Shown here: positions 8,214-24,817 of the stretch, piece by piece
How the letters are laid out: each line of letters begins with the position of its first letter
Position numbering within the stretch: the stretch's first letter is position 1
Assembly: GCF_018336915.1 (NCBI RefSeq)
Contig: NZ_CP064923.1
Coordinates: forward strand, 3,600,001-3,632,000
DNA length: 32,000 nucleotides
Source of the DNA: Acaryochloris marina S15
GTDB lineage: Bacteria > Cyanobacteriota > Cyanobacteriia > Thermosynechococcales > Thermosynechococcaceae
Direction: 5' to 3'
The notes under the pieces: model-generated
Told to the model about the DNA's origin: nothing
Seen by the model: the letters and a program-made list of their open reading frames with translations, nothing else
The model's database searches: none
Program-made: the position numbers and the translations under genes

Positions 8214-9494
8214 CTAACGGGAGGACAACTGTTCATACCCTGGCCATTCCAGCCAAACAACTTCTTCTCGCAGTTGTTCGCCCGTGACACTGGATAAACG
8301 AGTTCGAAACAGCTCGACGCCCCGGACTTCATAGCCGAGTTCTTCAGCAATGGCGGCCAACAGCTCTCCTGTTCGAATTAAAACCTGGAGAAAAGAAGCC
8401 TGATCACCCACAACATAGGCCAGTTGGGCTCCCGGCTTTAGAATAGGGCGCAAGTTCGCAAAATGGCGCTTCATGCCCCCAAAGTAGAGGGCGGTGACCC
8501 TATGATATAACTTCTCAAACCCCGAATCTTTGTCCATTTCCAAGCGACGGCGTTCGATAGTCGCGGCGAGCTGAGTGACTTGCGGTGTGTTTGCCACCCA
8601 TAAATCATCCCGATCGGCGGCAAACGCATTGCGGGTATTCGAGCGGAGCAATGACTGTTTATAGGCTTTTAAGTCGGATGGATCCTGAAGAAACCCTAGC
8701 AGTACCGACTCTAACCGCGTGGTGCGGGTGTAGTCTTTTTCATTCGGATAGGGGGGAGAGGTAATCACCGCATCAATGGATTCTGGCTGAATCACTCGGG
8801 TTAAATCCCTGGCATCCTGGTGATGGCAAACCGTCGGCGGGGGGCAATCGATGCCACCTAAGTCTACGGCCATCGCCAAAACCTGCTGATGCCAAGCGGT
8901 TAAAACGGGAGCATCCTGTTTGCGCTGGCGGCTGATACCGACTTCTGGGGCAAATCGCAGGTTACTGGCGGTATGGACACTGGTATGGGCCAGGGCAAGC
9001 TGGAGGAGAGGTCGCAGTTGAGGATTCCGTTCGGCATCGATAGCATCCCGCAAGACCAGACATTTATGGAGGGGCAGATCGCCAATGGAGTTTTTGAGCA
9101 GCAGCGATTGTGCCTCTGGTGCCAGCTTTTTTAGGTGGGTTGTATTTTTAGGTGTAATGTCGCGGGAGAGGAGATAGCAAATCCGTTCTGCGGCTCCTCG
9201 CACTTGATCTGGATCAGCGGTCCAGGTGGTTTTGGTGCGGGAGGCAAACCAGGACATGGGAGTCGCCTCCACTCCCACAGCAGGAATCCCTTGTTTCTTG
9301 GCTTCTACAATCGTGGTCCCAGTGCCACAAAAAGGATCTAGGAGGGTGCTGTTCGCCGTTAGACCGAACTTATCAATATAGGTCCGGACCAAATGGGGTG
9401 GAAAGGACAAGATAAAGCGATACCAATCATGAAAACTGCGATCGCTCTCCTGCAAGCGATTCAGATTGAGATCCTTGGGATTAGAGGCGTCCAT
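8214..9494 (-). CDS. SAM-dependent N6/N4-type (SPPY motif) methyltransferase, DNA-methylase-like, no adjacent restriction gene
   Basis: 426 aa. SAM motif I LLDPFCGTGTTIVEAKKQG near the N-terminus and catalytic motif IV AVITSPPYPNEKDY about 190 aa later (alpha-type order). Its ATG overlaps the TAA of the upstream SDR by 1 nt (TAATG at 9492-9496). Confidence 0.75.
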   Translation of the reverse strand: MDASNPKDLNLNRLQESDRSFHDWYRFILSFPPHLVRTYIDKFGLTANSTLLDPFCGTGTTIVEAKKQGIPAVGVEATPMSWFASRTKTTWTADPDQVRGAAERICYLLSRDITPKNTTHLKKLAPEAQSLLLKNSIGDLPLHKCLVLRDAIDAERNPQLRPLLQLALAHTSVHTASNLRFAPEVGISRQRKQDAPVLTAWHQQVLAMAVDLGGIDCPPPTVCHHQDARDLTRVIQPESIDAVITSPPYPNEKDYTRTTRLESVLLGFLQDPSDLKAYKQSLLRSNTRNAFAADRDDLWVANTPQVTQLAATIERRRLEMDKDSGFEKLYHRVTALYFGGMKRHFANLRPILKPGAQLAYVVGDQASFLQVLIRTGELLAAIAEELGYEVRGVELFRTRLSSVTGEQLREEVVWLEWPGYEQLSSR

Positions 9495-10309
9495 TAAGAG
9501 GATTGCGATCTCGTCTGGGTAACAATCCGATCAAAATACCAGTTCAGTCCTGGAGCTAGAACGCTGTGTAGTTTGGCCAATAATCCCATTTCCAATCCAG
9601 GAGCCACCACAAACTGGTTATTTTTTACCCCTTGGACAATCTTTTGGGCCACATCTTCCGGCTGCCACATTTCCGCAGAGGCGGTAATGTTCTTCGTCTC
9701 TGGGGGTTTTGTTTTATTTTCCGCTTCCAGTTGGGGGGTATCCGTATCGGGAGGATAGACAATTGACAAGCCAATCCCAGTCCCTTTCAATTCTCCCCGC
9801 AAGGATTCAGCCAACCCCCGCAGTGCAAACTTGCTGGGGCTGTAAGGGGTATATCCAAAGAGCCCCACTAGTCCTGCCCCTGACGAAATCAACACAATAT
9901 GTCCCCGGTGACGCTCTTCCATTAGGGGCAAAACCGCTTTAACGGCATACAAAGTGCCAAAGTAATTGACCGCCATCGTTTGCTCAAAGACTTCGAGGGG
10001 AACATCTTGGAAATAACCTGGACGGGCCATACCTGCAGCGGTCATTAAAATATCGGGTGGTCCCAGTTGTGCAGTTGCAGTGTAAATAGCTTGGTTTAAG
10101 GCTTCTCGGTCAGCGACATCCGCCTCTAAAGCTAAAACTTGCTGGCCGGACTGGACTGCTTTAATGTCCTGAGCGGCTATCTCTAATTGACTAGGAGTGC
10201 GGGCAATCAGGGAAATATTTGCCCCATGACTGGCTAAGAGGCAAGCGGTAGCCTTACCAATACCACTCGATCCACCCGTAATCATGACATGGCGTTGATC
10301 AAAGTCCAT
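9494..10309 (-). CDS. SDR oxidoreductase, 3-ketodihydrosphingosine reductase (KDSR/Tsc10)-like
   Basis: The track ORF starts at TTG 10321; the ATG is at 10309 ([19 protein letters not shown]). Catalytic YSPSK. The C-terminal block [45 protein letters not shown] parallels human KDSR as I recall it ([43 protein letters not shown]). Confidence 0.8.
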   Translation of the reverse strand: [271 protein letters not shown]

Positions 10310-10362
10310 CCGTTGACTCAATAGTTGTCCTTAACGATAGAAATTACCCCGAACGCTCATCC

Positions 10363-11034
10363 CTATCGATGAACAATCTGTCGCAGCAGATAATTCCAGA
10401 TCTCCGGGATGGGGTGGCGAGGCTGACTCAGATGGGAAGTTTCTCCCGTAAAAGCCATGTTCCATTGTCCTTGCTCATGGACCAGTTTAGTTAACCCACA
10501 GGTGGGAAAGCGAACGGGAGAGCGCTGATCGACCAGTCCCCAAGCGGCTCCCTTGCCAATTAACTCATGGGTAACGATGAGCAGCGGCCCTGAAAAGGTC
10601 TCCACCAATTGCTGAAGCGCTTTTCCTGCCCGGGCAAGCGCCTCTGCTTCAGTTTCTGGGAACGGGGGAATGATATGGCTCCGGTAATGTCGATCAATTT
10701 GAGGGAAGCGATCGGCCATCTCACCAACAGGCAGCGGTTCTGGACAACGCTTAAACAGCTTGGAACTCATATGTTCTCCCAATCCAGCCTCCAGATGGAT
10801 GGGCAAATTCAAAGCCGTTGCTGTATGGACTGCCGTCACTACGGTTCGTAAAAAAGGAGAAGCAACGATATTCTCGATGGGTTCTGACTTAAGACACCGA
10901 GCCACATCCTGAGCCTCCACCACCCCTGCCGCTGAGAGACCTGGATCATGGGGACGTTCTGCCCGTTTGCGCCAGCCTAAGTCAGCATAATCTTGCCGAT
11001 GGCCATGGCGTGCAATCCAGACTACTTCAGACAT
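10363..11034 (-). CDS. histidine phosphatase (phosphoglycerate-mutase-like) family protein
   Basis: 223 aa. The N-terminal catalytic RHG motif (VWIARHGHRQD), the downstream ASPFLRTVVTA and the LLIVTHELIG second His are typical of branch-1 histidine phosphatases. Confidence 0.85.
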   Translation of the reverse strand: MSEVVWIARHGHRQDYADLGWRKRAERPHDPGLSAAGVVEAQDVARCLKSEPIENIVASPFLRTVVTAVHTATALNLPIHLEAGLGEHMSSKLFKRCPEPLPVGEMADRFPQIDRHYRSHIIPPFPETEAEALARAGKALQQLVETFSGPLLIVTHELIGKGAAWGLVDQRSPVRFPTCGLTKLVHEQGQWNMAFTGETSHLSQPRHPIPEIWNYLLRQIVHR

Positions 11035-11048
11035 ATTGGCACCCCAAA

Positions 11049-12383
11049 TTAGGCAGGGATTTCAGTCTCTATTTGAGACAGAGCAGAAGCAAGGGTCTCT
11101 ACGGTTTGGCGAATTTGGGCTTCCGTATGGGTGCTACTCAGGAAAAAGCGGAGTCGAGCCTCATTTTGGGGCACCACAGGGAAGGTCATAGGTTGGACAT
11201 TAATCCCTTGGTGAAAGAGCTGCTGGGATAGATGCAGCGCTTTGAGGGTATCGCCCACCATCACGGGAATAACAGCCGAACCTTGACTGGTCCCGGTGTT
11301 CAACCCTTTTTCTTTAGCTAAGTCTAGAAATAATTGAGCCCGAGCATGAAGCCGAGCCACGCGCTCTGGTTCTTGCTTTAGGACCTGTAGTGCCGCCAAA
11401 GACGCAGCCGTATTGGCAGGGGTAATGCCAATGCTATAGATAAAGCCGGGTGCCGTACATTTGAGGTATTCAATCAAAGGCTGGGAACCAGCAATATAGC
11501 CTCCACAGCTGGCAAAGGACTTACTGAGGGTGCCCATCCAAATATCAACGGTTTTAGGGTCAATACCAAAATGCTCACTAATACCCTGACCGTGCTCGCC
11601 CAAAACCCCAATCGAGTGGGCTTCATCCACCATTAGAAAAGCTTTATGGCGTTCTTTGAGTTCAATAAATTCGGGTAAATCGGGAATGTCGCCATCAGCA
11701 CTGTACACCCCTTCAATCACCACCAAAACTCTCTGATAGCGTTGCCGATGCTGCTTCAAGAGTCTTTCTAGATCTGCTGTATCATTATGGGCAAAGGACA
11801 TGGCCCGTGCACCTGACAGCATACATCCGAGAAAAATGCTGTTGTGGCTATAGGCATCGTAAAGAATCAGGTCATCACGGCCAAATAAATGTCCAATTGT
11901 GGTGACGTTGGTACCATGACCCGCGACGTAGAGAACGGCGTCATCTACACCAATAAAGTCTGCAATTCCTTGTTCAAGCTCTAAATGTAAGGCTTTCTCG
12001 CCAGAGACGGGGCGGCTAGCTGAGACTGAAGTGCCATAGCGATCAATGGCTTGTTTGGCGGTTTCTGAAACAGTTGGATGTCCGGCTAGCCCTAAATAGT
12101 TATAGCTGGAAAAATTGATCAGCTCTTTGCCATCAATGCAGGTTGTATCTCGAGCAATCCCTTCATGGACAGAGAAATAAGGGTTGCGGATATCATTCGC
12201 TTGCAGTTGGGCTTGCTGCTCTTTGAGCTGAAGATATTCAGGATAGAGATCGAAGCGATAATGTTCGGGAGGAATTTCGGGTTCAGATTCTGCTTTTTTC
12301 TGCAATAATTCCGCCAGCAATTCGCGTTTTTCTTCTGCGGAGAGATGATCCAGGGAATTAGAGGAATTACTCATGGGCAACAT
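11049..12383 (-). CDS. PLP-dependent alpha-oxoamine synthase, serine palmitoyltransferase-like
   Basis: 444 aa. NPYFSVHEGIARDTTCIDGKELINFSSYNYLGLAGHP, DEAHSIG and the PLP-lysine context GTLSKSFASCGGY (SPT-like GTFSKS rather than BioF GTFGKG). The start overlaps the carrier-protein stop by 17 nt, or 8 nt if Met4 is the start. Confidence 0.9.
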   Translation of the reverse strand: MLPMSNSSNSLDHLSAEEKRELLAELLQKKAESEPEIPPEHYRFDLYPEYLQLKEQQAQLQANDIRNPYFSVHEGIARDTTCIDGKELINFSSYNYLGLAGHPTVSETAKQAIDRYGTSVSASRPVSGEKALHLELEQGIADFIGVDDAVLYVAGHGTNVTTIGHLFGRDDLILYDAYSHNSIFLGCMLSGARAMSFAHNDTADLERLLKQHRQRYQRVLVVIEGVYSADGDIPDLPEFIELKERHKAFLMVDEAHSIGVLGEHGQGISEHFGIDPKTVDIWMGTLSKSFASCGGYIAGSQPLIEYLKCTAPGFIYSIGITPANTAASLAALQVLKQEPERVARLHARAQLFLDLAKEKGLNTGTSQGSAVIPVMVGDTLKALHLSQQLFHQGINVQPMTFPVVPQNEARLRFFLSSTHTEAQIRQTVETLASALSQIETEIPA

Positions 12384-12822
12384 TATGCTCTGACAACATC
12401 GCGTTCAGCAGGCCATCCACTTCATCGTCACTCAATACATCCAATTTGGACAGGAGTTCATCGGCATCTGCGGGTAATGCTGAAGTAGTGGGAGAACTGC
12501 CTTCATTATCGGTTACTAAGTGCTCTGATAATTCACGAATATTGGAATAATCTAGAACAAGCATGGGATCCAAACGGCGACCCAGAAAATGTTCCAGTTC
12601 ACCTGAAACATTGACGACTTCTACGGAGTTCATTCCGTAGTCAATGAAATCCACATCGATATCAATTTCCTCTGGACTCATTTCCAAAGAAGTTGCCAAG
12701 TGTTTTTTTAACCAGGCTTGAATGTCTGCCAATGTAGGGGAAGTCTGCAGGGGCGAAACAGTTCCCTGAGACTGTGCTTCCGCTACAGCGACCGTGCTTT
12801 GATAGTTATCCTGGATTGGCAT
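12367..12822 (-). CDS. free-standing acyl carrier protein with extended termini
   Basis: 151 aa. Phosphopantetheine-site region IDVDFIDYGMNSVEVVNVSGELEHFLGRRL (Ser within GMNS, a variant of G-x-D-S). About 40 extra aa at the N-terminus and about 50 at the C-terminus (DADELLSKLDVLSDDEVDGLLNAMLSE). Confidence 0.8.
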   Translation of the reverse strand: MPIQDNYQSTVAVAEAQSQGTVSPLQTSPTLADIQAWLKKHLATSLEMSPEEIDIDVDFIDYGMNSVEVVNVSGELEHFLGRRLDPMLVLDYSNIRELSEHLVTDNEGSSPTTSALPADADELLSKLDVLSDDEVDGLLNAMLSEHNVAHE

Positions 12823-13185: not shown

Positions 13186-15066
13186 TTAGGCGCGAGGCAT
13201 GCTCTTGGCTACACTCTCTAAGTCTCCCTCTAGAAATTTGGCTCTACAAGTAAACCGCTGAATTTTACCACTAGATGTCTTGGGAATACTGCCGGGTTTG
13301 AGCAGCAGCAGGGCATGAATCTGCAGGTCATGGTCTTTGGCAACCGCCCGACGAATTTGGGTGAGGATGTCTTTTTCGACGGCGGCAGGTTCTGAGTCTG
13401 AGGTCAGGGTTGTGGGAGGGACAAAATTATTGAGCTGAGCGGTTTGGGAGGATGGCTTCTTGCCATTTTTTTGATAGCGATTGATATAGTTCCGCTCCAA
13501 CTCCGCCACTACTACTAGCCGTTCTTCACCTGCTTCTGTAATCGAAAATGCAGCGGCACAATTGGGTCGAATACCGGGATAGCTTTGGACCACGGTCAAC
13601 TCAATGTCCTGGGGATAATGATTACGGCCGTTGATAATAATCACATCCTTTAAGCGACCCGTCACAAAAAGCTCGGAACCCACCAAAAAGCCATAGTCTC
13701 CAGTCCGTAGAAATGGGCCAGACCCGGTATCTGCTAAATGGGCCTGAAAGGTTTCTCCAGATACTTCTGATTGCCGCCAGTATCCCTGGGCAATGCTTTC
13801 GCCAGACACCCATATTTCGCCGACTTCTTCTGCTGAACATTGTTGGAGGGTTTCAGGATTGGCAATAACGATTTCCTGGCCTTGGAGGGCGGAGCCGCAA
13901 CCCACTAAGGTGCGGGCATCGGCATCTTTAGAATGGGCAGAGACAACTTGATGTTGTTCTAGGGCTGCGCCTTGGACTGTTTTTAGAGCGGGTTTGGCAT
14001 TTCTCTGTCCCCCGGAAACGATCAGGGTGGCTTCGGCAAGGCCATAGCAGGGGAAAAATGCTTCAGACCGAAATCCACAGGGGGCAAATTTGGTGGCAAA
14101 GTCTTCAAGGGTTTGAGCGCTGATGGGTTCTGCTCCGTTAAAGGCCACCCGCCAGGAGCTCAGGTCCAATCCCTGGAGCTGCTCTGGTTTGACTTTGCGC
14201 AAGCATAAATCATAGGCAAAATTTGGCCCACCGCTGGTAGTGGCTCGATAGCGAGAAATCGCTTGTAACCAGCGAATAGGACTTTGCAAGAACATAAAGG
14301 GGGACATCAACGCCACGGGAAACCCTCCATATAAAGGCTGCAAAATCCCACCGATCAAACCCATGTCGTGATAAGGCGGTAGCCAAATGACCCCTTGGCA
14401 TTGGGAACTATGCTCAAAGCATTGATGAATTAGAGATAGATTCTGTAAGAGATTGTCATGGGTGATCATCACCCCTTTTGGCGTTGCAGTTGATCCAGAG
14501 GTGTATTGAAGAAAGGCTAAATCTTGTCCTTGGGGATGAATCTCTTGCCAGGCTTGGCGGGGTTCGGTGACGCTGAGGCTATCGGTCGCCAGCCACTTGA
14601 GGGCGCTCAACTCTGCTGCATCAATCAGCTGTCGTTCGAGTTTCGACAGGATTTGGGACGTTGTCAGGGCAAAAATGGCTTGGGAATCAGCAATCACGCT
14701 TTGCAAGCGCATCAGGGAGCGATTGGGACGGGGTGGATAAATCGGGACTGCCGTGACGCCTGCATAGAGGCAGCCAAAGAAGGCGGCAACATATTCTAAT
14801 CCGGGCTGATACACCAATAGGGCTCGGTCACCCGGTTGGCAAGCAGACTGTAACGCGGCTGCGATCGCACGGGCCTTAGCATCCAACTCTGCATAAGTGA
14901 GATGGAGGGTTTCATCTTCACCATCGACTAAAAAGGTAAAGCCTTGATGATCTGGCTGGTGAGCCGCTCGATAGCGGAGTAAATCCACCAAACTTTCCAC
15001 CTTCGGTGGGCAAGTTCCTTCGACCTTGGCGTCCCAATTTGTTGTTTCAGCCACGTTATACTCCAT
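13186..15066 (-). CDS. fatty acyl-AMP ligase (FAAL)
   Basis: The track ORF (662 aa) extends into the upstream gene. The plausible start is ATG 15066 (MEYNVAETT...), 13 nt after the upstream stop. FAAL hallmarks: LVDLLRYRAAHQPD, FLQYTSGSTATPKGVMITHDNLL, GPNFAYDL, YGLAEATL, LRTGDYGF, PKTSSGKIQR. Confidence 0.9.
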   Translation of the reverse strand: MEYNVAETTNWDAKVEGTCPPKVESLVDLLRYRAAHQPDHQGFTFLVDGEDETLHLTYAELDAKARAIAAALQSACQPGDRALLVYQPGLEYVAAFFGCLYAGVTAVPIYPPRPNRSLMRLQSVIADSQAIFALTTSQILSKLERQLIDAAELSALKWLATDSLSVTEPRQAWQEIHPQGQDLAFLQYTSGSTATPKGVMITHDNLLQNLSLIHQCFEHSSQCQGVIWLPPYHDMGLIGGILQPLYGGFPVALMSPFMFLQSPIRWLQAISRYRATTSGGPNFAYDLCLRKVKPEQLQGLDLSSWRVAFNGAEPISAQTLEDFATKFAPCGFRSEAFFPCYGLAEATLIVSGGQRNAKPALKTVQGAALEQHQVVSAHSKDADARTLVGCGSALQGQEIVIANPETLQQCSAEEVGEIWVSGESIAQGYWRQSEVSGETFQAHLADTGSGPFLRTGDYGFLVGSELFVTGRLKDVIIINGRNHYPQDIELTVVQSYPGIRPNCAAAFSITEAGEERLVVVAELERNYINRYQKNGKKPSSQTAQLNNFVPPTTLTSDSEPAAVEKDILTQIRRAVAKDHDLQIHALLLLKPGSIPKTSSGKIQRFTCRAKFLEGDLESVAKSMPRA

Positions 15067-15079
15067 CCTGACTACAGGA

Positions 15080-15862
15080 TTATGAATTCGTTTTCGATTT
15101 GAATAGCCCTTGTAACCGCTGATCCCATTTCTTCTGATTGGTCTCTGCATCTTTGATATAGGGAGACCAAGCAATCAATTGGATAATGAACTGATTCAGT
15201 AGGGAAGCAGGGAATTTTAGAGGACGGACAATATCGACAAAAAGGACGACCCGAACTTCATCGGTATTATTCCAGGCCTCATGCTCGAAGGAGTCATCGA
15301 ACACTAGGCTTTTGCCTTCTTGCCAATGGCGCACATCATCTCCCACTCGAATCCCGCAGTCTGAAGCGGCCTCGGGAATGACCAGTCCCAGATGGTAGCG
15401 CAGAACGCCATTAAAGGGGCCACGATGGGGCGGTATTTGCTTTTGTGGCAGCAAAATAGAGAAAAAAGCAGTCTTTACACCGGGAATACTGACTAATAGT
15501 TTCGCCGTTTCCGGACAAAGACGACAGTTTTGCTCTGCCGTCACCCCGTAGGCATAAAAGAAAAAGGTTTTCCAGCGCTGATCATTCGTGATGTTGTACT
15601 GATCGGGGGAAATGTCTTGAAAATTAGGGAGGTCATCTCTATATTTAAGAATTTCATCTAATTCCTTACGGATAACCTGCCAATTATCCTCAAAAGTTTT
15701 TACCCATTCAAACTGAGCGGTATCAAAGAACGTCGAGTTTCCCACCAGGGAAGCAGACCGAATGATGCGCTCTAATTGACGCAACAGATTTTCACCTGCT
15801 TTTAGGGCGACCTCACGGTTCTTAGTTTTGAAATCGGTGTAAAACTGGCTCAATGCACTCAT
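15080..15862 (-). CDS. aspartyl/asparaginyl beta-hydroxylase (AspH/LpxO/OlsC) family Fe(II)/2OG dioxygenase, paralog 1
   Basis: 260 aa with ATG start. Conserved block KTAFFSILLPQKQIPPHRGPFNGVLRYHLGLVIP...HWQEGKSLVFDDSFEHEAWN, the two-His AspH-type core. No TM segment. Confidence 0.85.
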   Translation of the reverse strand: MSALSQFYTDFKTKNREVALKAGENLLRQLERIIRSASLVGNSTFFDTAQFEWVKTFEDNWQVIRKELDEILKYRDDLPNFQDISPDQYNITNDQRWKTFFFYAYGVTAEQNCRLCPETAKLLVSIPGVKTAFFSILLPQKQIPPHRGPFNGVLRYHLGLVIPEAASDCGIRVGDDVRHWQEGKSLVFDDSFEHEAWNNTDEVRVVLFVDIVRPLKFPASLLNQFIIQLIAWSPYIKDAETNQKKWDQRLQGLFKSKTNS

Positions 15863-15935
15863 AAGTTAGGGGGTAGAAATCAACAATTGGGCGCATTAAC
15901 ACTCCAGCCAATGTACACCATGATCTGTCTCGATG

Positions 15936-16682
15936 CTATTGGGACCCTTTAGCCGCTGATAACGCATCAAATCGCTGGTCCCATTTCTTTTGATTAGCGG
16001 CTGCACCTTGAATATAAGGGGACCAGGAAAAGAGCTGAATCACCGCTCGGTTCAACAGAGAGATCGGGAATTTAACCGGCCTCACCACATCCAAAAACAG
16101 GACGACACGTACACTATCCGCATCGTTCCAAGCCGTATGTTCAAAAGAGTCATCAAACACTAGGCTTTTACCTTCTTGCCAATGACGAATGTCCTTGCCG
16201 ACGCGAATGCCACATTGGTCCGTGGCCTCTGGCACCATCAACCCGAGGTGATAGCGCAGGACACCGTTATAGGGACCTCGATGGGGTGGGATGCGTTGGT
16301 GGGGTAGCAAGATCGAGAAAAAGGCTGTTTTTAACCCAGGGATTTGTTCAATCAACCGGGTGGTTTCTGGGCAGCGATCGCAGTTCTTTTCAGCCTTGAT
16401 GCCATAGGCATAAAAGGCAAACATTTTCCACTGGGTATCTTTAGTGAGTTCAGAGTCATATTCCACCAATTCTTCAAAATTGGGCAATGCCTCTTGGTAT
16501 TGGAGGACCTGTTCCAACTCTTGACGAATCGTTCGCCAATTCTTTTCCAAGAGAGAGACCCAACTAAACATATTGGGGTTAAAAAAGGTGTTGTGGCCCA
16601 CCAGGGACGAACGCGAAACCAACCCGCCAATATGTTTGCGCATTAAAGTTTCGAAAAATTCTTTCACGGGACTGTATTCCAA
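15936..16682 (-). CDS. AspH/LpxO family Fe(II)/2OG dioxygenase, paralog 2
   Basis: 248 aa from TTG 16682, or 235 aa from ATG 16643. KTAFFSILLPHQRIPPHRGPYNGVLRYHLGLMVP...HWQEGKSLVFDDSFEHTAWN. Clearly paralogous to 15080-15862. Confidence 0.85.
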   Translation of the reverse strand: MEYSPVKEFFETLMRKHIGGLVSRSSLVGHNTFFNPNMFSWVSLLEKNWRTIRQELEQVLQYQEALPNFEELVEYDSELTKDTQWKMFAFYAYGIKAEKNCDRCPETTRLIEQIPGLKTAFFSILLPHQRIPPHRGPYNGVLRYHLGLMVPEATDQCGIRVGKDIRHWQEGKSLVFDDSFEHTAWNDADSVRVVLFLDVVRPVKFPISLLNRAVIQLFSWSPYIQGAAANQKKWDQRFDALSAAKGSQ

Positions 16683-16711
16683 TGATGTGTTGACTATCGT
16701 AATAAATCCTT

Positions 16712-16742
16712 AATTCTGATGGCTGAGTGGGACATCAGAATT
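16712..16742 (-). other. intercistronic hairpin between hydroxylase paralogs 3 and 2
   Basis: 10-bp stem aattctgatg / catcagaatt with an 11-nt loop, starting 4 nt after the paralog-3 stop. Confidence 0.35.
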
Positions 16743-16745
16743 AGA

Positions 16746-17576
16746 TTAGTGAGATTTCATAATCGCACCTAGGCGTTGTTCCCACTGGTTCTGAAGCTTT
16801 TTAGCATCCTGAACAAAGGGCGACCAAGAAATTAAGCGAATAAGGGTTTTGTTGAGGACAGAGACGGGAAATTGAAGGGGTCGGATCACATCGACAATGA
16901 GTACGACCCGAACCTCGTTGCTATCGTTCCAGACCTCATGGGGAAATCGATCATCAAAGACTAAACCTTGCCCCTGCTGCCAATGACGAATTTGATCCGC
17001 TACCCGCAGACGGCATTGGGTTTCGGGTTGGGGCACTTTTAGGGCCAGATGGTACCGGATGACTCCCTTGAAAACCCCGCAATGCTCGGGAATATGTTTG
17101 TGGGGCAACAAGATGGAGAAGAAGGCCGTTTTCATGCCCGGAATGGATTCGATCAGTTGGCTGGTTTGAGGACAGTGAGCACAGTTTTGAGCCGCTTTTA
17201 CCCCAAAGGCATAGAAGAAAAAGGTCTTCCAGCGATCGTCTTGGGTGAGACGGTACTGATCTGGCGATAAATCTTGGAAGTTGGGTAGCTCATCCTGATA
17301 CTGGAGAATATCATCCAGTTCTTGGACAATGATGTGCCAGTTGTTTTCTAGCCTCTTGATCCAGGGGAACTGTTGAGCTTCGATAAAAGGCGTATTTCCC
17401 ACTAGGGAGTAGGACTCGATCAGACCTTCGAATCGCCGCAATAACTGCTCGGCTCCCTTTAAAAAGAGCTGACGACTTTTAGTCTGCCAATTTCCATCGT
17501 GTTGACTGAAAGCATTCATAGCACTGGAGGTTTGAGTAGACAATCTGTCCTTGGCTTTCACTAAGGATGACGACAT
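16746..17576 (-). CDS. AspH/LpxO family Fe(II)/2OG dioxygenase, paralog 3 (most divergent)
   Basis: 276 aa with ATG start. KTAFFSILLPHKHIPEHCGVFKGVIRYHLALKVP...HWQQGQGLVFDDRFPHEVWN. Longer N-terminus than the other two. Confidence 0.85.
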   Translation of the reverse strand: MSSSLVKAKDRLSTQTSSAMNAFSQHDGNWQTKSRQLFLKGAEQLLRRFEGLIESYSLVGNTPFIEAQQFPWIKRLENNWHIIVQELDDILQYQDELPNFQDLSPDQYRLTQDDRWKTFFFYAFGVKAAQNCAHCPQTSQLIESIPGMKTAFFSILLPHKHIPEHCGVFKGVIRYHLALKVPQPETQCRLRVADQIRHWQQGQGLVFDDRFPHEVWNDSNEVRVVLIVDVIRPLQFPVSVLNKTLIRLISWSPFVQDAKKLQNQWEQRLGAIMKSH

Positions 17577-17595
17577 CAGATCGGGGAACGTTAAA

Positions 17596-19389
17596 TTACG
17601 ATTGATTCGCGGCCATAGGGGCCATCAAATCTGAGATATTGCCTTGGGTTTCTTGTTTCCACTCAGCAACGGGTTGAAAACTGTTTTCTAAAAATTTAGT
17701 TCGACAAGCGCGACGCTGGATCTTGCCACTAGAGGTTTTGGGGATGGCACCCGGCTTGAGAAGCAACACGGCATAGACTTCAGCCATATGGTCCTCGGCA
17801 ATGGCCAAACGAATTGCTCCGATAACCTCTTCGACGGGTAAGCGACGGAAAAAGTTTCGTTCCACTTCATGGACAATCACCAGATGCTCTTCACCATTCA
17901 GGGGAATGGAAAAAGCAGCGCCATGGTTGGGCCGTAGGGCCGGATGGCATTGCTCAACGGTTTGTTCAATCAGCTGGGGATATTGGTTACGCCCCCAGAT
18001 AATCATCAAGTCTTTAATACGGCCCGTGATATAGACTTCACCATCCTGGACAAAGCCTAGGTCGCCGGTACGTAGAAAGGGTCCTTCGCCGGTATCAGCC
18101 AAGTGGGCCTGAAAGGTCTCGGCGGTGATGTCAGGTCTGTTCCAATAGCCTTTGCCGACGCCGGCCCCAGACACCCAAATCTCACCGACTTGGTTTTCCG
18201 CACATTTAGTTCGGGTATCGGGATTTGCGATCGCAACCTTATCCCCTAACAACATGCGGCCACAGCCGATAATCGCCTGGGCTTTGTCAGACTCCGGCTC
18301 TACAGACACCACTTTATTTTCGGCCAGGGCCGTACTGTCGAGATAGCGAATCACGGGTGGCTCTGACTTCAGGCCCCCGGAGATAAATAAGGTGGTTTCA
18401 GCCATGCCATAACAGGGATAAAAGGCTTCCCGGCGGAAGCCACAGGGGCCAAAAAAGTCCACAAACTTATCCAGGGTATCGGCCTTGATGGGCTCTGCCC
18501 CAGAAAAGGCTACTTCCCATTTGCTCAGATCCAGCTTGTCTCGCTGCTGCGGCTTTACCTTTTGGCACAGTAAATCATAGGCAAAGTTGGGTCCGCCGCT
18601 GGTGGTCGCCCCATATTTAGACACGGCTTCTAGCCACAAAATCGGTTTTTGGATCAGGGAAATCGGCGACATCAGGGTCACTGGGAACCCCCCATACAGG
18701 GGTTGAAGAACACCCCCCACCAGACCCATATCGTGAAATAGCGGTAGCCAAATCACGCCTTGACTCGTGTCTGAATGGCCAAAGCCCTCATAAATCAATT
18801 TAGAGTTATGGAGCATATTGCCGTGGGTGACCATCACCCCTTTCGGATCTCCAGTGGACCCCGAGGTGTATTGCAAAAAGGCCAACGTGTCCGGCTCTAA
18901 GTCGGGCTGCACCCAAGCAGAGGCCTGATCCATGGGCACGGTATCCGTGGCCAGCCAGGTCAACTTATTTAAGTACGGCGCTAAATCAGGATTCTTTTTT
19001 AGCTGGGTTTTGAGATGCTCCAAAAATCCTGCGGTGGAGATCAGTACAGTCGCTTCCGAGGCTCGGGCGCGGATTTGGAGTTTGGCAATGGCTGCTGATT
19101 TACGGGGAGGATTATCGGTGACGGCCACTACCCCGGCATAGAGACAGCCAAAAAAGGCAGACACAAATTCTAGTCCGGCATCGTAGGGATAGACGACCAG
19201 AACGTTGGTGCCACGGGCGGTCAGGGCTTGTATTGCGGCTGCGATCGCACGGGCTTGCAAATCCAAGGTGGCATAGGTGAGAGTGCCGGATTCAGTTTTA
19301 CCATCGGCTAAAAAGGTATAGGCATCTAGATCAGACTGGTGCTGAGACCGCTCTCGAAGCAAATCGACTAGAGTTGAAGGCTGGGTCAT
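17596..19389 (-). CDS. fatty acyl-AMP ligase (FAAL)
   Basis: 597 aa with ATG start. LVDLLRERSQHQSD, FLQYTSGSTGDPKGVMVTHGNML, GPNFAYDL, YGMAETTL, LRTGDLGF, PKTSSGKIQR. First gene of the array. Confidence 0.9.
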   Translation of the reverse strand: MTQPSTLVDLLRERSQHQSDLDAYTFLADGKTESGTLTYATLDLQARAIAAAIQALTARGTNVLVVYPYDAGLEFVSAFFGCLYAGVVAVTDNPPRKSAAIAKLQIRARASEATVLISTAGFLEHLKTQLKKNPDLAPYLNKLTWLATDTVPMDQASAWVQPDLEPDTLAFLQYTSGSTGDPKGVMVTHGNMLHNSKLIYEGFGHSDTSQGVIWLPLFHDMGLVGGVLQPLYGGFPVTLMSPISLIQKPILWLEAVSKYGATTSGGPNFAYDLLCQKVKPQQRDKLDLSKWEVAFSGAEPIKADTLDKFVDFFGPCGFRREAFYPCYGMAETTLFISGGLKSEPPVIRYLDSTALAENKVVSVEPESDKAQAIIGCGRMLLGDKVAIANPDTRTKCAENQVGEIWVSGAGVGKGYWNRPDITAETFQAHLADTGEGPFLRTGDLGFVQDGEVYITGRIKDLMIIWGRNQYPQLIEQTVEQCHPALRPNHGAAFSIPLNGEEHLVIVHEVERNFFRRLPVEEVIGAIRLAIAEDHMAEVYAVLLLKPGAIPKTSSGKIQRRACRTKFLENSFQPVAEWKQETQGNISDLMAPMAANQS

Positions 19390-20177: not shown

Positions 20178-21191
20178 ATGAATAAGTTTTGGCAACACAA
20201 AACGATTTTTCGCCTCCTGCTGCTGTTCTGCATTGGGCTAGGACTCGTTTTTCTCTTTCAAAAAATCAATCTCCAAGGTCGTGATCTGCTAGATGCATTT
20301 CAGCGGTTTAGCATCGAATCCCTATTTCTAATGTTAGGGGTTACTTTGGTACAAATGGCCTTTCAGGTAACTCGTCTCTGGGTACTTTGTCCTCAATCGG
20401 CAGGAGTGAGTTGGGCCCAAGCCGCAAATACTTACGTATCGGGCCAATTTATTGGCAATTTTGTTCTCAGCCAAGCGGGGCATGCCGTTAAAATTGCCCT
20501 GTTGCGCAAGGATAAAGATACCAAGGGCCGAAAAATTGATGCAGCTGAGGCTACAGCCGTCATCCTAGTGGATAAAATGCTAGATGTCGGCATTCTGGTC
20601 ACCCTAGCTGTTCTATCAGCATTACAAGTCTCCGTCGGTTTGCCCCAAGTCGATTGGTGGGAAAAAGGTATTATTTTGCTGATCGGCATCCCTTTTCTAG
20701 GGGTCGCATTGTGGGCCATCCTCCGAGGTTTGCGCCAACGGTTTCCAAAATTACGTCAATGGTTCCGAAAGTTTAAGATCGGACTAGCTGTAATTCGTAA
20801 TCCTCTCCAAATTCGTAATGCTGCGGTCATGGACTTGGGAGACTGGTTTACGGAATGTTTACTGTTGCAAATGCTATGCATGGCTCAAGGTCATGTCCTA
20901 TCTTTACCCCAACTTTTGATCTGCTTGTTTGTTCTGAACTTGGGGCTGACGGTGCCTACGACTATGGCCAACCTGGGTACCTACGAAGCTGCCCTAGCCT
21001 TTTCTCTCAATGGTATGGGGGTGCCCCTGGCGCAAAGTGTGGTGATTGCAACGATGTTTCATGCTTATCAACTATTCAGTTTGCCTGTGTGGACGTTTAT
21101 CCAAAAGTTGAGTTATCGCTTCTCACCCAAGTTAGACTCGACACTGTCCATTCCCATTCCTCAAAAACGCACAAAAGTTACCTCCAAGTAA
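20178..21191 (+). CDS. MprF-TM / lysyl-phosphatidylglycerol-synthase transmembrane-region (UPF0104, flippase-like) family protein
   Basis: 337 aa, about 8 TM segments. The N-terminal pattern FRLLLLFCIGLGLVFLFQKINLQGRDLLDAFQRFSIESLFLMLGVTLVQMAFQVTRLWVL fits the LPG_synthase_TM family layout. Divergent from the FAAL array. Confidence 0.6.
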   Translation: MNKFWQHKTIFRLLLLFCIGLGLVFLFQKINLQGRDLLDAFQRFSIESLFLMLGVTLVQMAFQVTRLWVLCPQSAGVSWAQAANTYVSGQFIGNFVLSQAGHAVKIALLRKDKDTKGRKIDAAEATAVILVDKMLDVGILVTLAVLSALQVSVGLPQVDWWEKGIILLIGIPFLGVALWAILRGLRQRFPKLRQWFRKFKIGLAVIRNPLQIRNAAVMDLGDWFTECLLLQMLCMAQGHVLSLPQLLICLFVLNLGLTVPTTMANLGTYEAALAFSLNGMGVPLAQSVVIATMFHAYQLFSLPVWTFIQKLSYRFSPKLDSTLSIPIPQKRTKVTSK

Positions 21192-23770: not shown

Positions 23771-24817
23771 TTAGATGATAGAAGCAGCAACTTGTGCTTC
23801 CGATGCACCGCCCTGAACAATTGCGATTAAGTCACCACCAATAGAAATGCTAACTCCAAAAGGTAATGGACCAATGGTACTACCGATGCTGAAAACAGTA
23901 CCTGGTGATAGCTGAATCTTATCTAGTTGACCAAATTTAAAGTCTTGGATAAGGGCATAATCAGCATCCCCTTCACCCAGGTAATAGTTTTTAGGACCGC
24001 TACCTGCAGGTTGGCCGAGGATAGTACCATCATCTCCAAGAACGAAGACATCAGCTCCACGACCACCTCTTAGTTCATCAATTTCACCATCACCAAACCC
24101 AAAGGGGTCGATAAAGGGATCGACGCCAACGAGGACATCATCCCCACCACCACCAGATAGGGTGTCGTTCGAGAAACCACCGCCAACAAGGGCATCATTT
24201 CCTCTCCCCCCTCTGATTTCATCATCGCCGATACTTCCGAAAATAACGTCGTCACCAGCGCCACCATCTAAGAAATCATTACCATCTTCAGCATCAATGA
24301 GGTCGTTACCAGCACCACCGAAAATGCGATCATTCCCACTGCCACCGAAAAAGCGATCATTCCCAGCATCTCCGCGAATCCAGTCTGCGCCATCGCCACC
24401 GTTGAGAATATCGTCACCAGATCCGCCGCGAATATTGTCATCGCCAGCGTCTCCAAAGATATTATCTGCACCTAATCCTCCGGCAATAAAGTCATTACCG
24501 CCTCCGCCAAATAGGTTATCGTTTCCTGCGTCGCCTCGGATATCATCGTTTCCACCTTCACCAAAGATTAGGTCATTCCCATTGCCACCCCTGATAAAGT
24601 CATCATCTCCAGCAGCAGGATCAAAGACCCTAGAATCGCCAAAGATGACGTCATCACCATCTTGTCCAAAAAGCCGATCATTCCCAGCGCCTCCGATGAT
24701 GATATCTACACCAGCACCACCACGGATCAAGTCATTGCCATTAAGACCAAAGATGCCATCACCATCAGCAGTTCCTGTAATGAAATCAGCGAGATTAGAA
24801 CCAACAATAGTAGCCAT
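23771..24817 (-). CDS. RTX / hemolysin-type calcium-binding repeat protein
   Basis: 348 aa. More than 20 tandem nonapeptides of the GGxGxDxUx type (GGAGNDRLFGQDGDDVIFG, GGNGNDLIFGEGGNDDIRGDAGNDNLFGGGGNDFIAG...). No N-terminal signal peptide, as expected for type-I-secreted proteins. Confidence 0.9.
   Translation of the reverse strand: MATIVGSNLADFITGTADGDGIFGLNGNDLIRGGAGVDIIIGGAGNDRLFGQDGDDVIFGDSRVFDPAAGDDDFIRGGNGNDLIFGEGGNDDIRGDAGNDNLFGGGGNDFIAGGLGADNIFGDAGDDNIRGGSGDDILNGGDGADWIRGDAGNDRFFGGSGNDRIFGGAGNDLIDAEDGNDFLDGGAGDDVIFGSIGDDEIRGGRGNDALVGGGFSNDTLSGGGGDDVLVGVDPFIDPFGFGDGEIDELRGGRGADVFVLGDDGTILGQPAGSGPKNYYLGEGDADYALIQDFKFGQLDKIQLSPGTVFSIGSTIGPLPFGVSISIGGDLIAIVQGGASEAQVAASII

What the first reader, a model, noticed from the sequence alone, without database searches (positions are those of the whole stretch)
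9494..10309. Eukaryote-like KDSR homologue rather than the proteobacterial CerR-type reductase
Seen: the SDR carries [9 protein letters not shown], YSPSK and a C-terminal block [43 protein letters not shown]. From memory, this block aligns position by position with human KDSR/FVT1 ([43 protein letters not shown]).

Established: the Caulobacter-type bacterial ceramide pathway uses a different reductase family (CerR). KDSR-like SDRs are used in eukaryotes, in Bacteroidetes, and in capnine/sulfonolipid synthesis.

Inference: reduction happens directly on the 3-keto amino-lipid, in the eukaryote-like order. The enzyme's ancestry (vertical, from Bacteroidetes, or shared with plastid-bearing eukaryotes) is worth asking about.
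Basis: partly seen in the sequence, partly recalled or inferred. Interest (0 to 1): 0.6.

Follow-up and report, generated by a model that had tools for sequence, protein, structure and literature searches.

The report
Cyanobacterial eukaryote-type KDSR ketoreductase
An Acaryochloris cyanobacterium encodes a soluble enzyme that is a true relative of the eukaryotic 3-ketodihydrosphingosine reductase, placed beside the enzyme that makes its likely substrate, so a sphingosine-like lipid base is probably made in the eukaryotic order of steps; the enzyme kind is known, the cyanobacterial pathway is not.

Summary
A 271-aa classical SDR lies on the minus strand at 9494-10309 and carries [9 protein letters not shown], YSPSK and the PPDTDTP block.

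It is an orthology-grade member of the KDSR/Tsc10 family:
- 43% identity to a coral KDSR and 50% to Acanthamoeba KDSR.
- Reciprocal best hit, 36 orders of magnitude ahead of the next SDR in the genome.
- The substrate-loop block aligns without gaps.

The family is tied to alpha-oxoamine synthases (AOS):
- An AOS lies on the same strand within 3 kb in 26 of 80 prokaryotic loci, across five phyla.
- Four AOS-SDR fusion proteins exist.
- 20 of 21 SDR-positive cyanobacterial genomes carry a dedicated AOS.

The most likely function is NADPH-dependent reduction of the 3-keto amino lipid made by the FAAL-ACP-AOS genes upstream. Order of steps, substrate and product are inferred, not shown.

It is neither CerR-like nor Bacteroidota-like. 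The ancestry shows no plastid signal. The cyanobacterial clade is patchy (21 of 401 genomes) and among the closest sampled bacterial relatives of the eukaryotic clade, with moderate support.

Automatic pipelines already call these proteins 3-dehydrosphinganine reductase, and Pseudomonas PfSgaC is a published precedent, so this is a new member of a known kind. The scan noted similar SDRs on other genomes.

The parts
9494..10309 (-). KDSR-family classical SDR (P0001, 271 aa; stop codon 9494-9496). Catalytic N115/S143/Y156/K160, cofactor motif TGGSSGIGK 11-19 plus R37, substrate-loop block 185-227.
11049..12383 (-). Alpha-oxoamine synthase (SPT/BioF-like, 444 aa), the likely producer of the SDR's 3-keto-2-amino substrate.
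   Evidence: Pfam Aminotran_1_2. It falls below every NCBIfam equivalog cut-off: BioF 372/426, SPT 351/640. Best PDB hit is Sphingobacterium SPT at 1.7e-71, against BioF/KBL at 3.8e-68. It co-occurs with the SDR across cyanobacteria.
12367..12822 (-). Free-standing acyl carrier protein (151 aa) whose gene overlaps the AOS start.
   Evidence: Pfam PP-binding 3.2e-14; coordinates
13186..15174 (-). Fatty acyl-AMP ligase (FAAL) that probably loads the carrier protein. The true start is probably downstream of 15174, because the listed ORF overlaps the hydroxylase gene.
   Evidence: AMP-binding 7.3e-70; FAAL NCBIfam hits
10363..11034 (-). Histidine phosphatase (His_Phos_1) between the AOS and the SDR. 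This placement was seen only in the Acaryochloris loci, so it is accessory and not part of the core.
8214..9494 (-). Methyltransferase-like protein (426 aa). Its start codon shares one base with the SDR stop codon.
   Evidence: It is conserved next to the SDR in A. marina MBIC11017.
15080..19389 (-). Upstream part of the same-strand array: three OlsC/LpxO-like hydroxylases (15080-15862, 15936-16682, 16746-17576) and a second FAAL (17596-19389).

Best explanation
P0001 is a soluble, cytoplasmic bacterial member of the KDSR/Tsc10 family (3-dehydrosphinganine reductase, EC 1.1.1.102).

Proposed pathway (inferred from gene content):
1. A FAAL activates a fatty acid and loads it on the stand-alone ACP.
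2. The AOS condenses the acyl-ACP with an amino acid, possibly serine, to give a long-chain 3-keto-2-amino compound.
3. P0001 reduces the 3-keto group with NADPH to the 3-hydroxyl, giving a sphinganine-like amino alcohol.
4. Other cluster enzymes (three OlsC-like hydroxylases, a methyltransferase-like protein, a second FAAL) then modify it.

Shown by computation: family membership, conserved catalytic and cofactor residues, the conserved substrate loop, and genomic and phyletic linkage to AOS.

Inferred: the substrate, the cofactor, reduction before any N-acylation, and the final product.
For: Family membership:
- 43% identity over 249 aa to coral KDSR.
- 50% identity to Acanthamoeba KDSR, with a 36-order E-value gap to the next SDR in the genome. 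In the other direction, own-genome paralogues are at most 36% identical.
- Tsc10 is the best PDB sequence hit.
- N115, S143, Y156, K160 and R37 are invariant or at least 90% conserved across 46 family members.
- The substrate-loop block is 41-55% identical to eukaryotic KDSRs.
- The AF2 model is a confident SDR fold, pLDDT 96.5.

Linkage to AOS:
- AOS lies immediately upstream in 8 of 20 cyanobacterial orthologue loci.
- 11 of the 12 other cyanobacterial genomes carry the cluster-type AOS (57-64% identity) elsewhere.
- In a 401-genome cyanobacterial sample, 21 genomes have the SDR and 20 of those have a dedicated AOS.
- AOS lies on the same strand within 3 kb in 26 of 80 best prokaryotic loci, in five phyla and in both gene orders.
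- Four AOS-SDR fusion clusters exist: P0148, P0322-P0324.

Precedent: the KDSR homologue PfSgaC sits in the sphinganine-producing Pseudomonas sga cluster (PMC12134224).
Against: - No biochemical data exist.
- The AOS reaches no SPT equivalog cut-off, so the amino-acid substrate is unknown.
- Cyanobacterial orthologues also sit in other contexts: KS + SRPBCC + SDR + a ~600-aa membrane protein, or next to lgt. The family may therefore accept other long-chain 3-keto lipids.
- Many unrelated SDRs can reduce 3-ketosphinganine.
- No ceramide synthase was recognised, so the step order relative to acylation is open.
- The Foldseek PDB search did not single out Tsc10; the top hit was HSD17B13.
- Eight sampled cyanobacterial genomes have the AOS without this SDR.
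Confidence: 0.75

Rival explanations
1. P0001 is a KDSR-family reductase, but it acts on a different long-chain 3-keto lipid. Candidates are a carrier-bound or PKS-derived beta-keto acyl chain, or an already N-acylated keto-ceramide-like intermediate (the CerR-type order of steps).
For: - Three of 20 cyanobacterial orthologues sit in a KS-SRPBCC-SDR-membrane protein cassette with no adjacent AOS, and four sit next to housekeeping genes.
- KS genes neighbour the SDR in Roseomonas, Falsiroseomonas and Streptomyces loci.
- SDR fusions to AMP-binding, MFS and methyltransferase domains exist.
- The cluster has a second FAAL with no obvious role.
Against: - The genomes with KS or lgt contexts still encode the cluster-type AOS elsewhere, several times as a domain of a 2,465-2,746-aa open frame.
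- AOS-SDR fusions argue for consecutive steps.
- The window holds no KS near the SDR.
- The substrate loop is conserved with enzymes known to act on the free 3-keto base.
Confidence: 0.17
2. P0001 is a generic housekeeping SDR that lies beside the lipid genes by chance. The KDSR resemblance would be ordinary SDR similarity.
For: - NCBIfam gives only generic SDR names, all below cut-off.
- The fold search returns generic SDRs.
Against: - Reciprocal best hit to named eukaryotic KDSRs with a very large margin.
- A family-specific loop.
- AOS linkage repeated across five phyla.
- Patchy distribution, found in 21 of 401 genomes, which is unlike a housekeeping gene.
Confidence: 0.03

Closest known systems
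Eukaryotic 3-ketodihydrosphingosine reductase (KDSR/FVT1, yeast Tsc10; EC 1.1.1.102)
   Same: - Same SDR subfamily, at 41-51% identity.
- Same catalytic N-S-Y-K residues.
- Same TGGSSGIGK and Arg cofactor signature.
- Same PPDTDTP...E-N-x-x-KP-x-ET substrate loop.
- It follows an AOS (SPT-like) step.

   Different: - P0001 is soluble. It lacks the N- and C-terminal hydrophobic anchors present in the eukaryotic sequences.
- It is encoded in an operon with FAAL, ACP and AOS.
- Its activity is untested.
PfSgaC, the KDSR homologue in the Pseudomonas fluorescens MYb115 sga (PKS + AOS) sphinganine cluster (PMC12134224)
   Same: A bacterial, cluster-encoded KDSR homologue beside an AOS, proposed to reduce 3-keto bases before further modification.
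   Different: - There the acyl chain comes from an iterative PKS. Here it comes from FAAL plus a free ACP.
- PfSgaC's activity is itself only proposed.
Fungal Fum13 / SphF (3-ketoreductases of the fumonisin and sphingofungin clusters)
   Same: KDSR homologues recruited into secondary-metabolite clusters that contain an AOS (cited in PMC12134224).
   Different: They are eukaryotic and PKS-fed. They were not compared by sequence here.
CerR, the Caulobacter-type ceramide reductase
   Same: It reduces the same keto position of a sphingoid backbone.
   Different: CerR is NDUFA9-like and periplasmic, and acts after N-acylation (PMC11087976). P0001 is a classical adh_short SDR with no export signal.
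Bacteroides BT_0972 and the Bacteroidota 3-ketocapnine reductases (CapC/KCR)
   Same: Bacterial SDRs shown to reduce 3-keto sphingoid or capnoid bases with NADPH.
   Different: They are only 16-30% identical to Tsc10/FVT1 and are not clustered with SPT. P0001 is far closer to the eukaryotic enzyme.

Membership tests
KDSR/Tsc10 family (3-dehydrosphinganine reductase) | Classical SDR Rossmann fold with the TGxxxGxG cofactor motif | tested here: met
   adh_short E 2.4e-50; TGGSSGIGK at 11-19; AF2 model pLDDT 96.5 with the alternating strand-helix pattern of an SDR Rossmann fold.
KDSR/Tsc10 family (3-dehydrosphinganine reductase) | Catalytic Asn-Ser-Tyr-Lys residues | tested here: met
   S143, Y156 and K160 are invariant and N115 is at least 90% conserved in a 46-member alignment that includes 11 eukaryotic KDSRs.
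KDSR/Tsc10 family (3-dehydrosphinganine reductase) | Family-specific substrate-loop block (PPDTDTP ... KP-x-ET ...) after strand 6 | tested here: met
   Gapless alignment at 41-55% identity to 11 eukaryotic KDSRs. 22/43 identical to a vertebrate KDSR block.
KDSR/Tsc10 family (3-dehydrosphinganine reductase) | Orthology-grade similarity: reciprocal best hits, and a clade with named KDSRs apart from other SDRs | tested here: met
   In the careful tree the eukaryotic clade and the cyanobacterial clade are neighbours. Rooting is unreliable because the outgroups are not monophyletic.
KDSR/Tsc10 family (3-dehydrosphinganine reductase) | NADPH-dependent reduction of 3-ketosphinganine | not testable with these tools
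   Only the sequence signature of NADP(H) preference is present: K19 after the Gly motif and R37 after strand 2, with R37 at least 90% conserved. Reading this as NADP(H) preference rests on my knowledge of SDR cofactor rules.
KDSR/Tsc10 family (3-dehydrosphinganine reductase) | Membrane anchoring by terminal hydrophobic segments (eukaryotic members) | tested here: not met
   P0001 starts the Rossmann strand at residue 7 and has no hydrophobic tail. The eukaryote-type sequences have both. This is a localisation feature of the eukaryotic branch, not a catalytic one. About 70 soluble bacterial family members share the bacterial form.
CerR (bacterial ceramide reductase) | NDUFA9/epimerase-like fold and periplasmic location | tested here: not met
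   Only adh_short, adh_short_C2 and KR Pfam hits. No N-terminal extension is present. The description of CerR comes from PMC11087976.
FabG / 3-oxoacyl-ACP reductase | Score above the NCBIfam equivalog cut-offs | tested here: not met
   PRK07666 scored 159 against a cut-off of 286. FabG PRK12826 scored 123 against 222.
Bacteroidota KDSR / ketocapnine reductase group (BT_0972, CapC, KCR) | Close sequence relationship to those characterised enzymes | not tested
   Their sequences are not obtainable with the tools. Indirect evidence: no Bacteroidota among the 80 best loci, and the literature gives only 16-30% identity between them and Tsc10.

The most novel reading that the evidence does not exclude
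KDSR-family reductases paired with alpha-oxoamine synthases mark a widespread route to sphingoid bases that does not use CerR or bCerS and runs in the eukaryotic order of steps. It appears in Cyanobacteria, Chloroflexota, Alphaproteobacteria, Spirochaetota and others, and surveys based on Spt+bCerS+CerR miss it. The cyanobacterial-type enzymes are the closest prokaryotic relatives of the eukaryotic KDSR, which would bear on where eukaryotic sphingolipid synthesis came from.
Probability: 0.3. Interest if true: 0.7.

Novelty: new member of a known kind. Interest (0 to 1): 0.5.

Why it matters
Sphingolipids are almost unknown in cyanobacteria. The literature I could search records only two ceramides, from Scytonema and Moorea (PMC8895605), and both genera carry this SDR.

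Current genomic surveys of bacterial sphingolipid producers rely on Spt, bCerS and CerR. A true KDSR orthologue tied to an AOS in about 5% of sampled cyanobacterial species, and in several other phyla, points to a second route. That route can be tested directly by expressing two to four genes.

It also gives a soluble bacterial model for an enzyme that is membrane-bound and hard to study in eukaryotes.

Tried and rejected
- Foldseek PDB search of the AF2 model: the top hits were HSD17B13 and other generic SDRs. The SDR fold is too uniform to discriminate, so this was not used as evidence.
- ESM Atlas: it returned only generically named SDR or '3-dehydrosphinganine reductase' clusters, with no alignment.
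- FastTree and quick IQ-TREE trees placed cyanobacteria with Alphaproteobacteria and Actinomycetota, and eukaryotes as sister to that whole group.
- AU test: a tree constraining cyanobacteria and eukaryotes into one clade had a log-likelihood 39 units higher than the free quick tree, and the grouping was not rejected (p 0.83). The quick topology was therefore dropped in favour of the careful search.
- Plastid origin: rejected as unsupported. P0001 is most similar to Acanthamoeba (51%), not to algae (43-44%).
- Bacteroidota origin: no support.
- Asgard link: the one Asgard sequence groups with Chloroflexota, not with eukaryotes.
- Eukaryote-type ceramide synthase (TLC domain) in the genome: none found, but the control genomes were silent, so this is uninformative.
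- Rosetta-stone check: the SDR-methyltransferase and SDR-LPG_synthase_TM fusions found elsewhere have no significant pairwise similarity to the window's own methyltransferase-like protein or LPG_synthase_TM protein.
- Literature searches for a described cyanobacterial FAAL-AOS-KDSR cluster found nothing.
Full report
**Observation**

The stretch 9494-10309 encodes, on the minus strand, one open 271-aa protein, P0001. The plus strand is closed by many stops. The ORF list gives 9494..10321 from an upstream TTG. The ATG at 10309 matches the 271-aa length of close homologues.

The stop codon (9494-9496) shares one base with the start of the next gene (8214-9494). The gap to the upstream histidine-phosphatase gene is 53 nt, with no promoter-like or terminator-like site in it.

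- TGGSSGIGK at 11-19
- YSPSK at 156-160
- the YPPDTDTP...IVQG block at 185-227

**Organism and cluster**

The closest homologues are Acaryochloris proteins, at 90% identity to A. marina NIES-2412. A. marina MBIC11017 carries the same array, with the SDR at 88% identity.

On the minus strand the window holds, from upstream to downstream:
- a FAAL
- three OlsC/LpxO-like hydroxylases
- a second FAAL
- an ACP
- an alpha-oxoamine synthase (AOS)
- a His_Phos_1 phosphatase
- the SDR
- a methyltransferase-like protein
- a CDF transporter

**Is it really KDSR-like?**

Yes, by several independent measures.

- PDB sequences: the best hit is Tsc10 of Cryptococcus neoformans (8jat), E 2.6e-31. The alignment runs through the C-terminal block, whereas the next-best hit, a generic SDR, matches only to residue 212 of the query.
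- Representative library: a search of 1.84 billion representatives gave 935 hits below 1e-30. Among the best 150 are 320-345-aa proteins with terminal hydrophobic segments.
- Named members of those clusters: coral KDSR-like XP_020628746, Acanthamoeba castellanii KDSR, Haematococcus, the glaucophyte Gloeochaete, Pythium, and EukProt and MMETSP transcripts.
- Pairwise: P0001 is 43% identical to the coral enzyme over 249 residues with 2 gaps.
- Reciprocal search: Acanthamoeba KDSR searched against the window's own genome hits this gene at E 3.6e-65 (50% identity). The next SDR scores 3.3e-29.
- Forward search: the genome's other SDRs are at most 36% identical to P0001.
- The block 184-227 lies just after strand 6, where the model shows short helices. 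In SDRs this region is the variable substrate-binding loop (my knowledge of the fold). It is 41-55% identical to 11 eukaryotic KDSRs, no lower than the Rossmann core.
P0001 matches either at 22/43.
- S143, Y156 and K160 are invariant across the family, and N115 and R37 are at least 90% conserved.
- JGI and UniRef already label many homologues '3-dehydrosphinganine reductase'.

**What it is not**

CerR is NDUFA9-like, periplasmic and acts after acylation (PMC11087976). P0001 is a classical adh_short protein whose Rossmann strand begins at residue 7.

The characterised Bacteroidota enzymes (BT_0972, ketocapnine reductases) share only 16-30% identity with Tsc10/FVT1 (PMC9278070; PMC11211663). No Bacteroidota appear among the 80 best prokaryotic loci.

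**Link to the AOS**

*Within cyanobacteria.* In a sample of 401 cyanobacterial genomes, 21 carry an orthologue (E at most 1e-92; 16 of 156 genera).
- Of the 20 orthologue loci outside this genome, eight have an AOS immediately upstream, flanked by FAALs. Four of these AOS are about 60% identical to the window's and four about 36%.
- The other contexts are lgt plus a tetrapyrrole methylase (four loci), a KS-SRPBCC-SDR-~600-aa membrane protein cassette (three loci), and miscellaneous.
- Eleven of those twelve genomes encode the cluster-type AOS (57-64% identity) elsewhere. In four it is part of a 2,465-2,746-aa open frame.
- Overall, 20 of 21 SDR-positive genomes have a dedicated AOS. Eight genomes have the AOS without this SDR.

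*Beyond cyanobacteria.* The 80 best loci span Chloroflexota, Pseudomonadota, Actinomycetota, Verrucomicrobiota, Spirochaetota, Myxococcota and others.
- 26 of the 80 have an AOS on the same strand within 3 kb, usually within 50-280 nt.
- These 26 fall in five phyla and show both gene orders.
- Four distinct AOS-SDR fusion proteins exist.

This repeated linkage is the main evidence that the family reduces the AOS product. The fusions favour consecutive steps, that is, reduction of the free keto base.

**Mechanism proposed**

FAAL and ACP supply an acyl thioester. The AOS condenses it with an amino acid. P0001 reduces C-3 with NADPH.

The amino acid is unknown. The AOS scores best against Sphingobacterium SPT in the PDB (1.7e-71), but BioF/KBL enzymes follow closely (3.8e-68), and it passes no NCBIfam equivalog cut-off. 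The genome has one other AOS, at 42% identity, presumably BioF.

No ceramide synthase was identified. A TLC-domain search was negative but uncontrolled.

**Ancestry**

*Trees.* The careful IQ-TREE run had 123 rows under LG+G4. Support is given as ultrafast bootstrap / SH-aLRT.
- The 20 eukaryote-type sequences form one clade (99/94), joined by a Chloroflexota SDR-AMP-binding fusion (90/86).
- The cyanobacterial sequences form one clade (86/94). It also contains an Oceanococcus and a Paraburkholderia sequence.
- With Thermoflexales and Opitutus it forms a group (85/93) that is the neighbour of the eukaryotic clade (60/82).
- Quicker trees differed. An AU test does not reject cyanobacteria plus eukaryotes as one clade (p 0.83).
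- The outgroup SDRs were not monophyletic, so I read the tree as unrooted.

*Similarity to eukaryotes.* Mean BLAST scores against five eukaryotic KDSRs:

| Group | Mean bits |
|---|---|
| Cyanobacteria | 196 |
| Chloroflexota | 165 |
| Actinomycetota | 155 |
| Pseudomonadota | 140 |

P0001 is closest to Acanthamoeba (51%), not to algae (43-44%). There is therefore no plastid-transfer signal.

*Within cyanobacteria.* The gene is patchy. It was not found in the four other sampled genomes of the same family.

*Caveat.* The bacterial sample was chosen by similarity to the cyanobacterial clade, so closer bacterial relatives of the eukaryotic enzyme may have been missed.

**Novelty**

A bacterial cluster-encoded KDSR homologue beside an AOS has been published. 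PfSgaC sits in the Pseudomonas sga cluster, which makes C24-C28 sphinganines. That paper calls the step unusual in bacteria outside Bacteroides and Prevotella (PMC12134224).

I found no paper on the cyanobacterial FAAL-ACP-AOS-KDSR arrangement. The only cyanobacterial sphingolipids on record come from Scytonema and Moorea (PMC8895605), and both genera carry this SDR.

The finding is therefore a new member of a known kind. Its wider implication, that an overlooked KDSR-type route is common in bacteria, is of moderate interest.

Earlier notes of this scan recorded similar KDSR-like SDRs in other cyanobacterial genomes, including the KS-SRPBCC cassette, which I saw independently.

Noticed in passing
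L032:8186-13422 and L044:9164-12578 (other cyanobacterial genomes): In three cyanobacterial genomes the KDSR-like gene sits in a tight cassette: type I KS, an SRPBCC/polyketide-cyclase protein, the SDR, and a ~600-aa protein with no Pfam hit. The cluster-type AOS in the same genomes is a domain of a 2,465-2,746-aa open frame elsewhere.
   Followed up: partly
P0313-P0318 (523 aa): Six clusters of KDSR-like SDR fused to a class I SAM methyltransferase. The window's SDR is translationally coupled to a methyltransferase-like gene (8214-9494), but the two methyltransferase parts show no significant pairwise similarity.
   Followed up: partly
window 20178-21191 (+): An LPG_synthase_TM-family membrane protein is transcribed divergently from the cluster's first FAAL. 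A KDSR-like SDR fused to the same Pfam family exists elsewhere (P0320), but the pairwise similarity is not significant.
   Followed up: partly
L110 (Candidatus Harpocratesius repetitus, an Asgard archaeon MAG): An Asgard MAG contig of 4.36 Mb encodes a KDSR-family SDR (37% identity to the alignment's lead sequence P0127). It groups with Chloroflexota sequences and the AOS-SDR fusion P0148, not with eukaryotes.
   Followed up: partly
L055 and L058 (Oceanococcus sp. and Paraburkholderia sp. MAGs): Two proteobacterial SDRs nest inside the cyanobacterial clade, which suggests transfer between phyla. The Paraburkholderia copy follows an AOS.
   Followed up: no
window 10363-11034 (-): The histidine phosphatase between the AOS and the SDR is present in that position only in the Acaryochloris loci. 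In other cyanobacterial clusters the AOS is followed directly by the SDR.
   Followed up: partly
window 23771-24817 (-): A 348-aa protein made almost wholly of RTX calcium-binding nonapeptide repeats (HemolysinCabind, 10 stretches), downstream of a MatE transporter gene.
   Followed up: no
P0138 (698 aa, Chlamydia sp. 32-24 MAG and others): A KDSR-like SDR fused to an FAD-binding D-arabinono-1,4-lactone oxidase-type domain. The window has an FAD_binding_4/cytokinin-dehydrogenase-like gene at 419-1792, but about 7.7 kb from the SDR.
   Followed up: no
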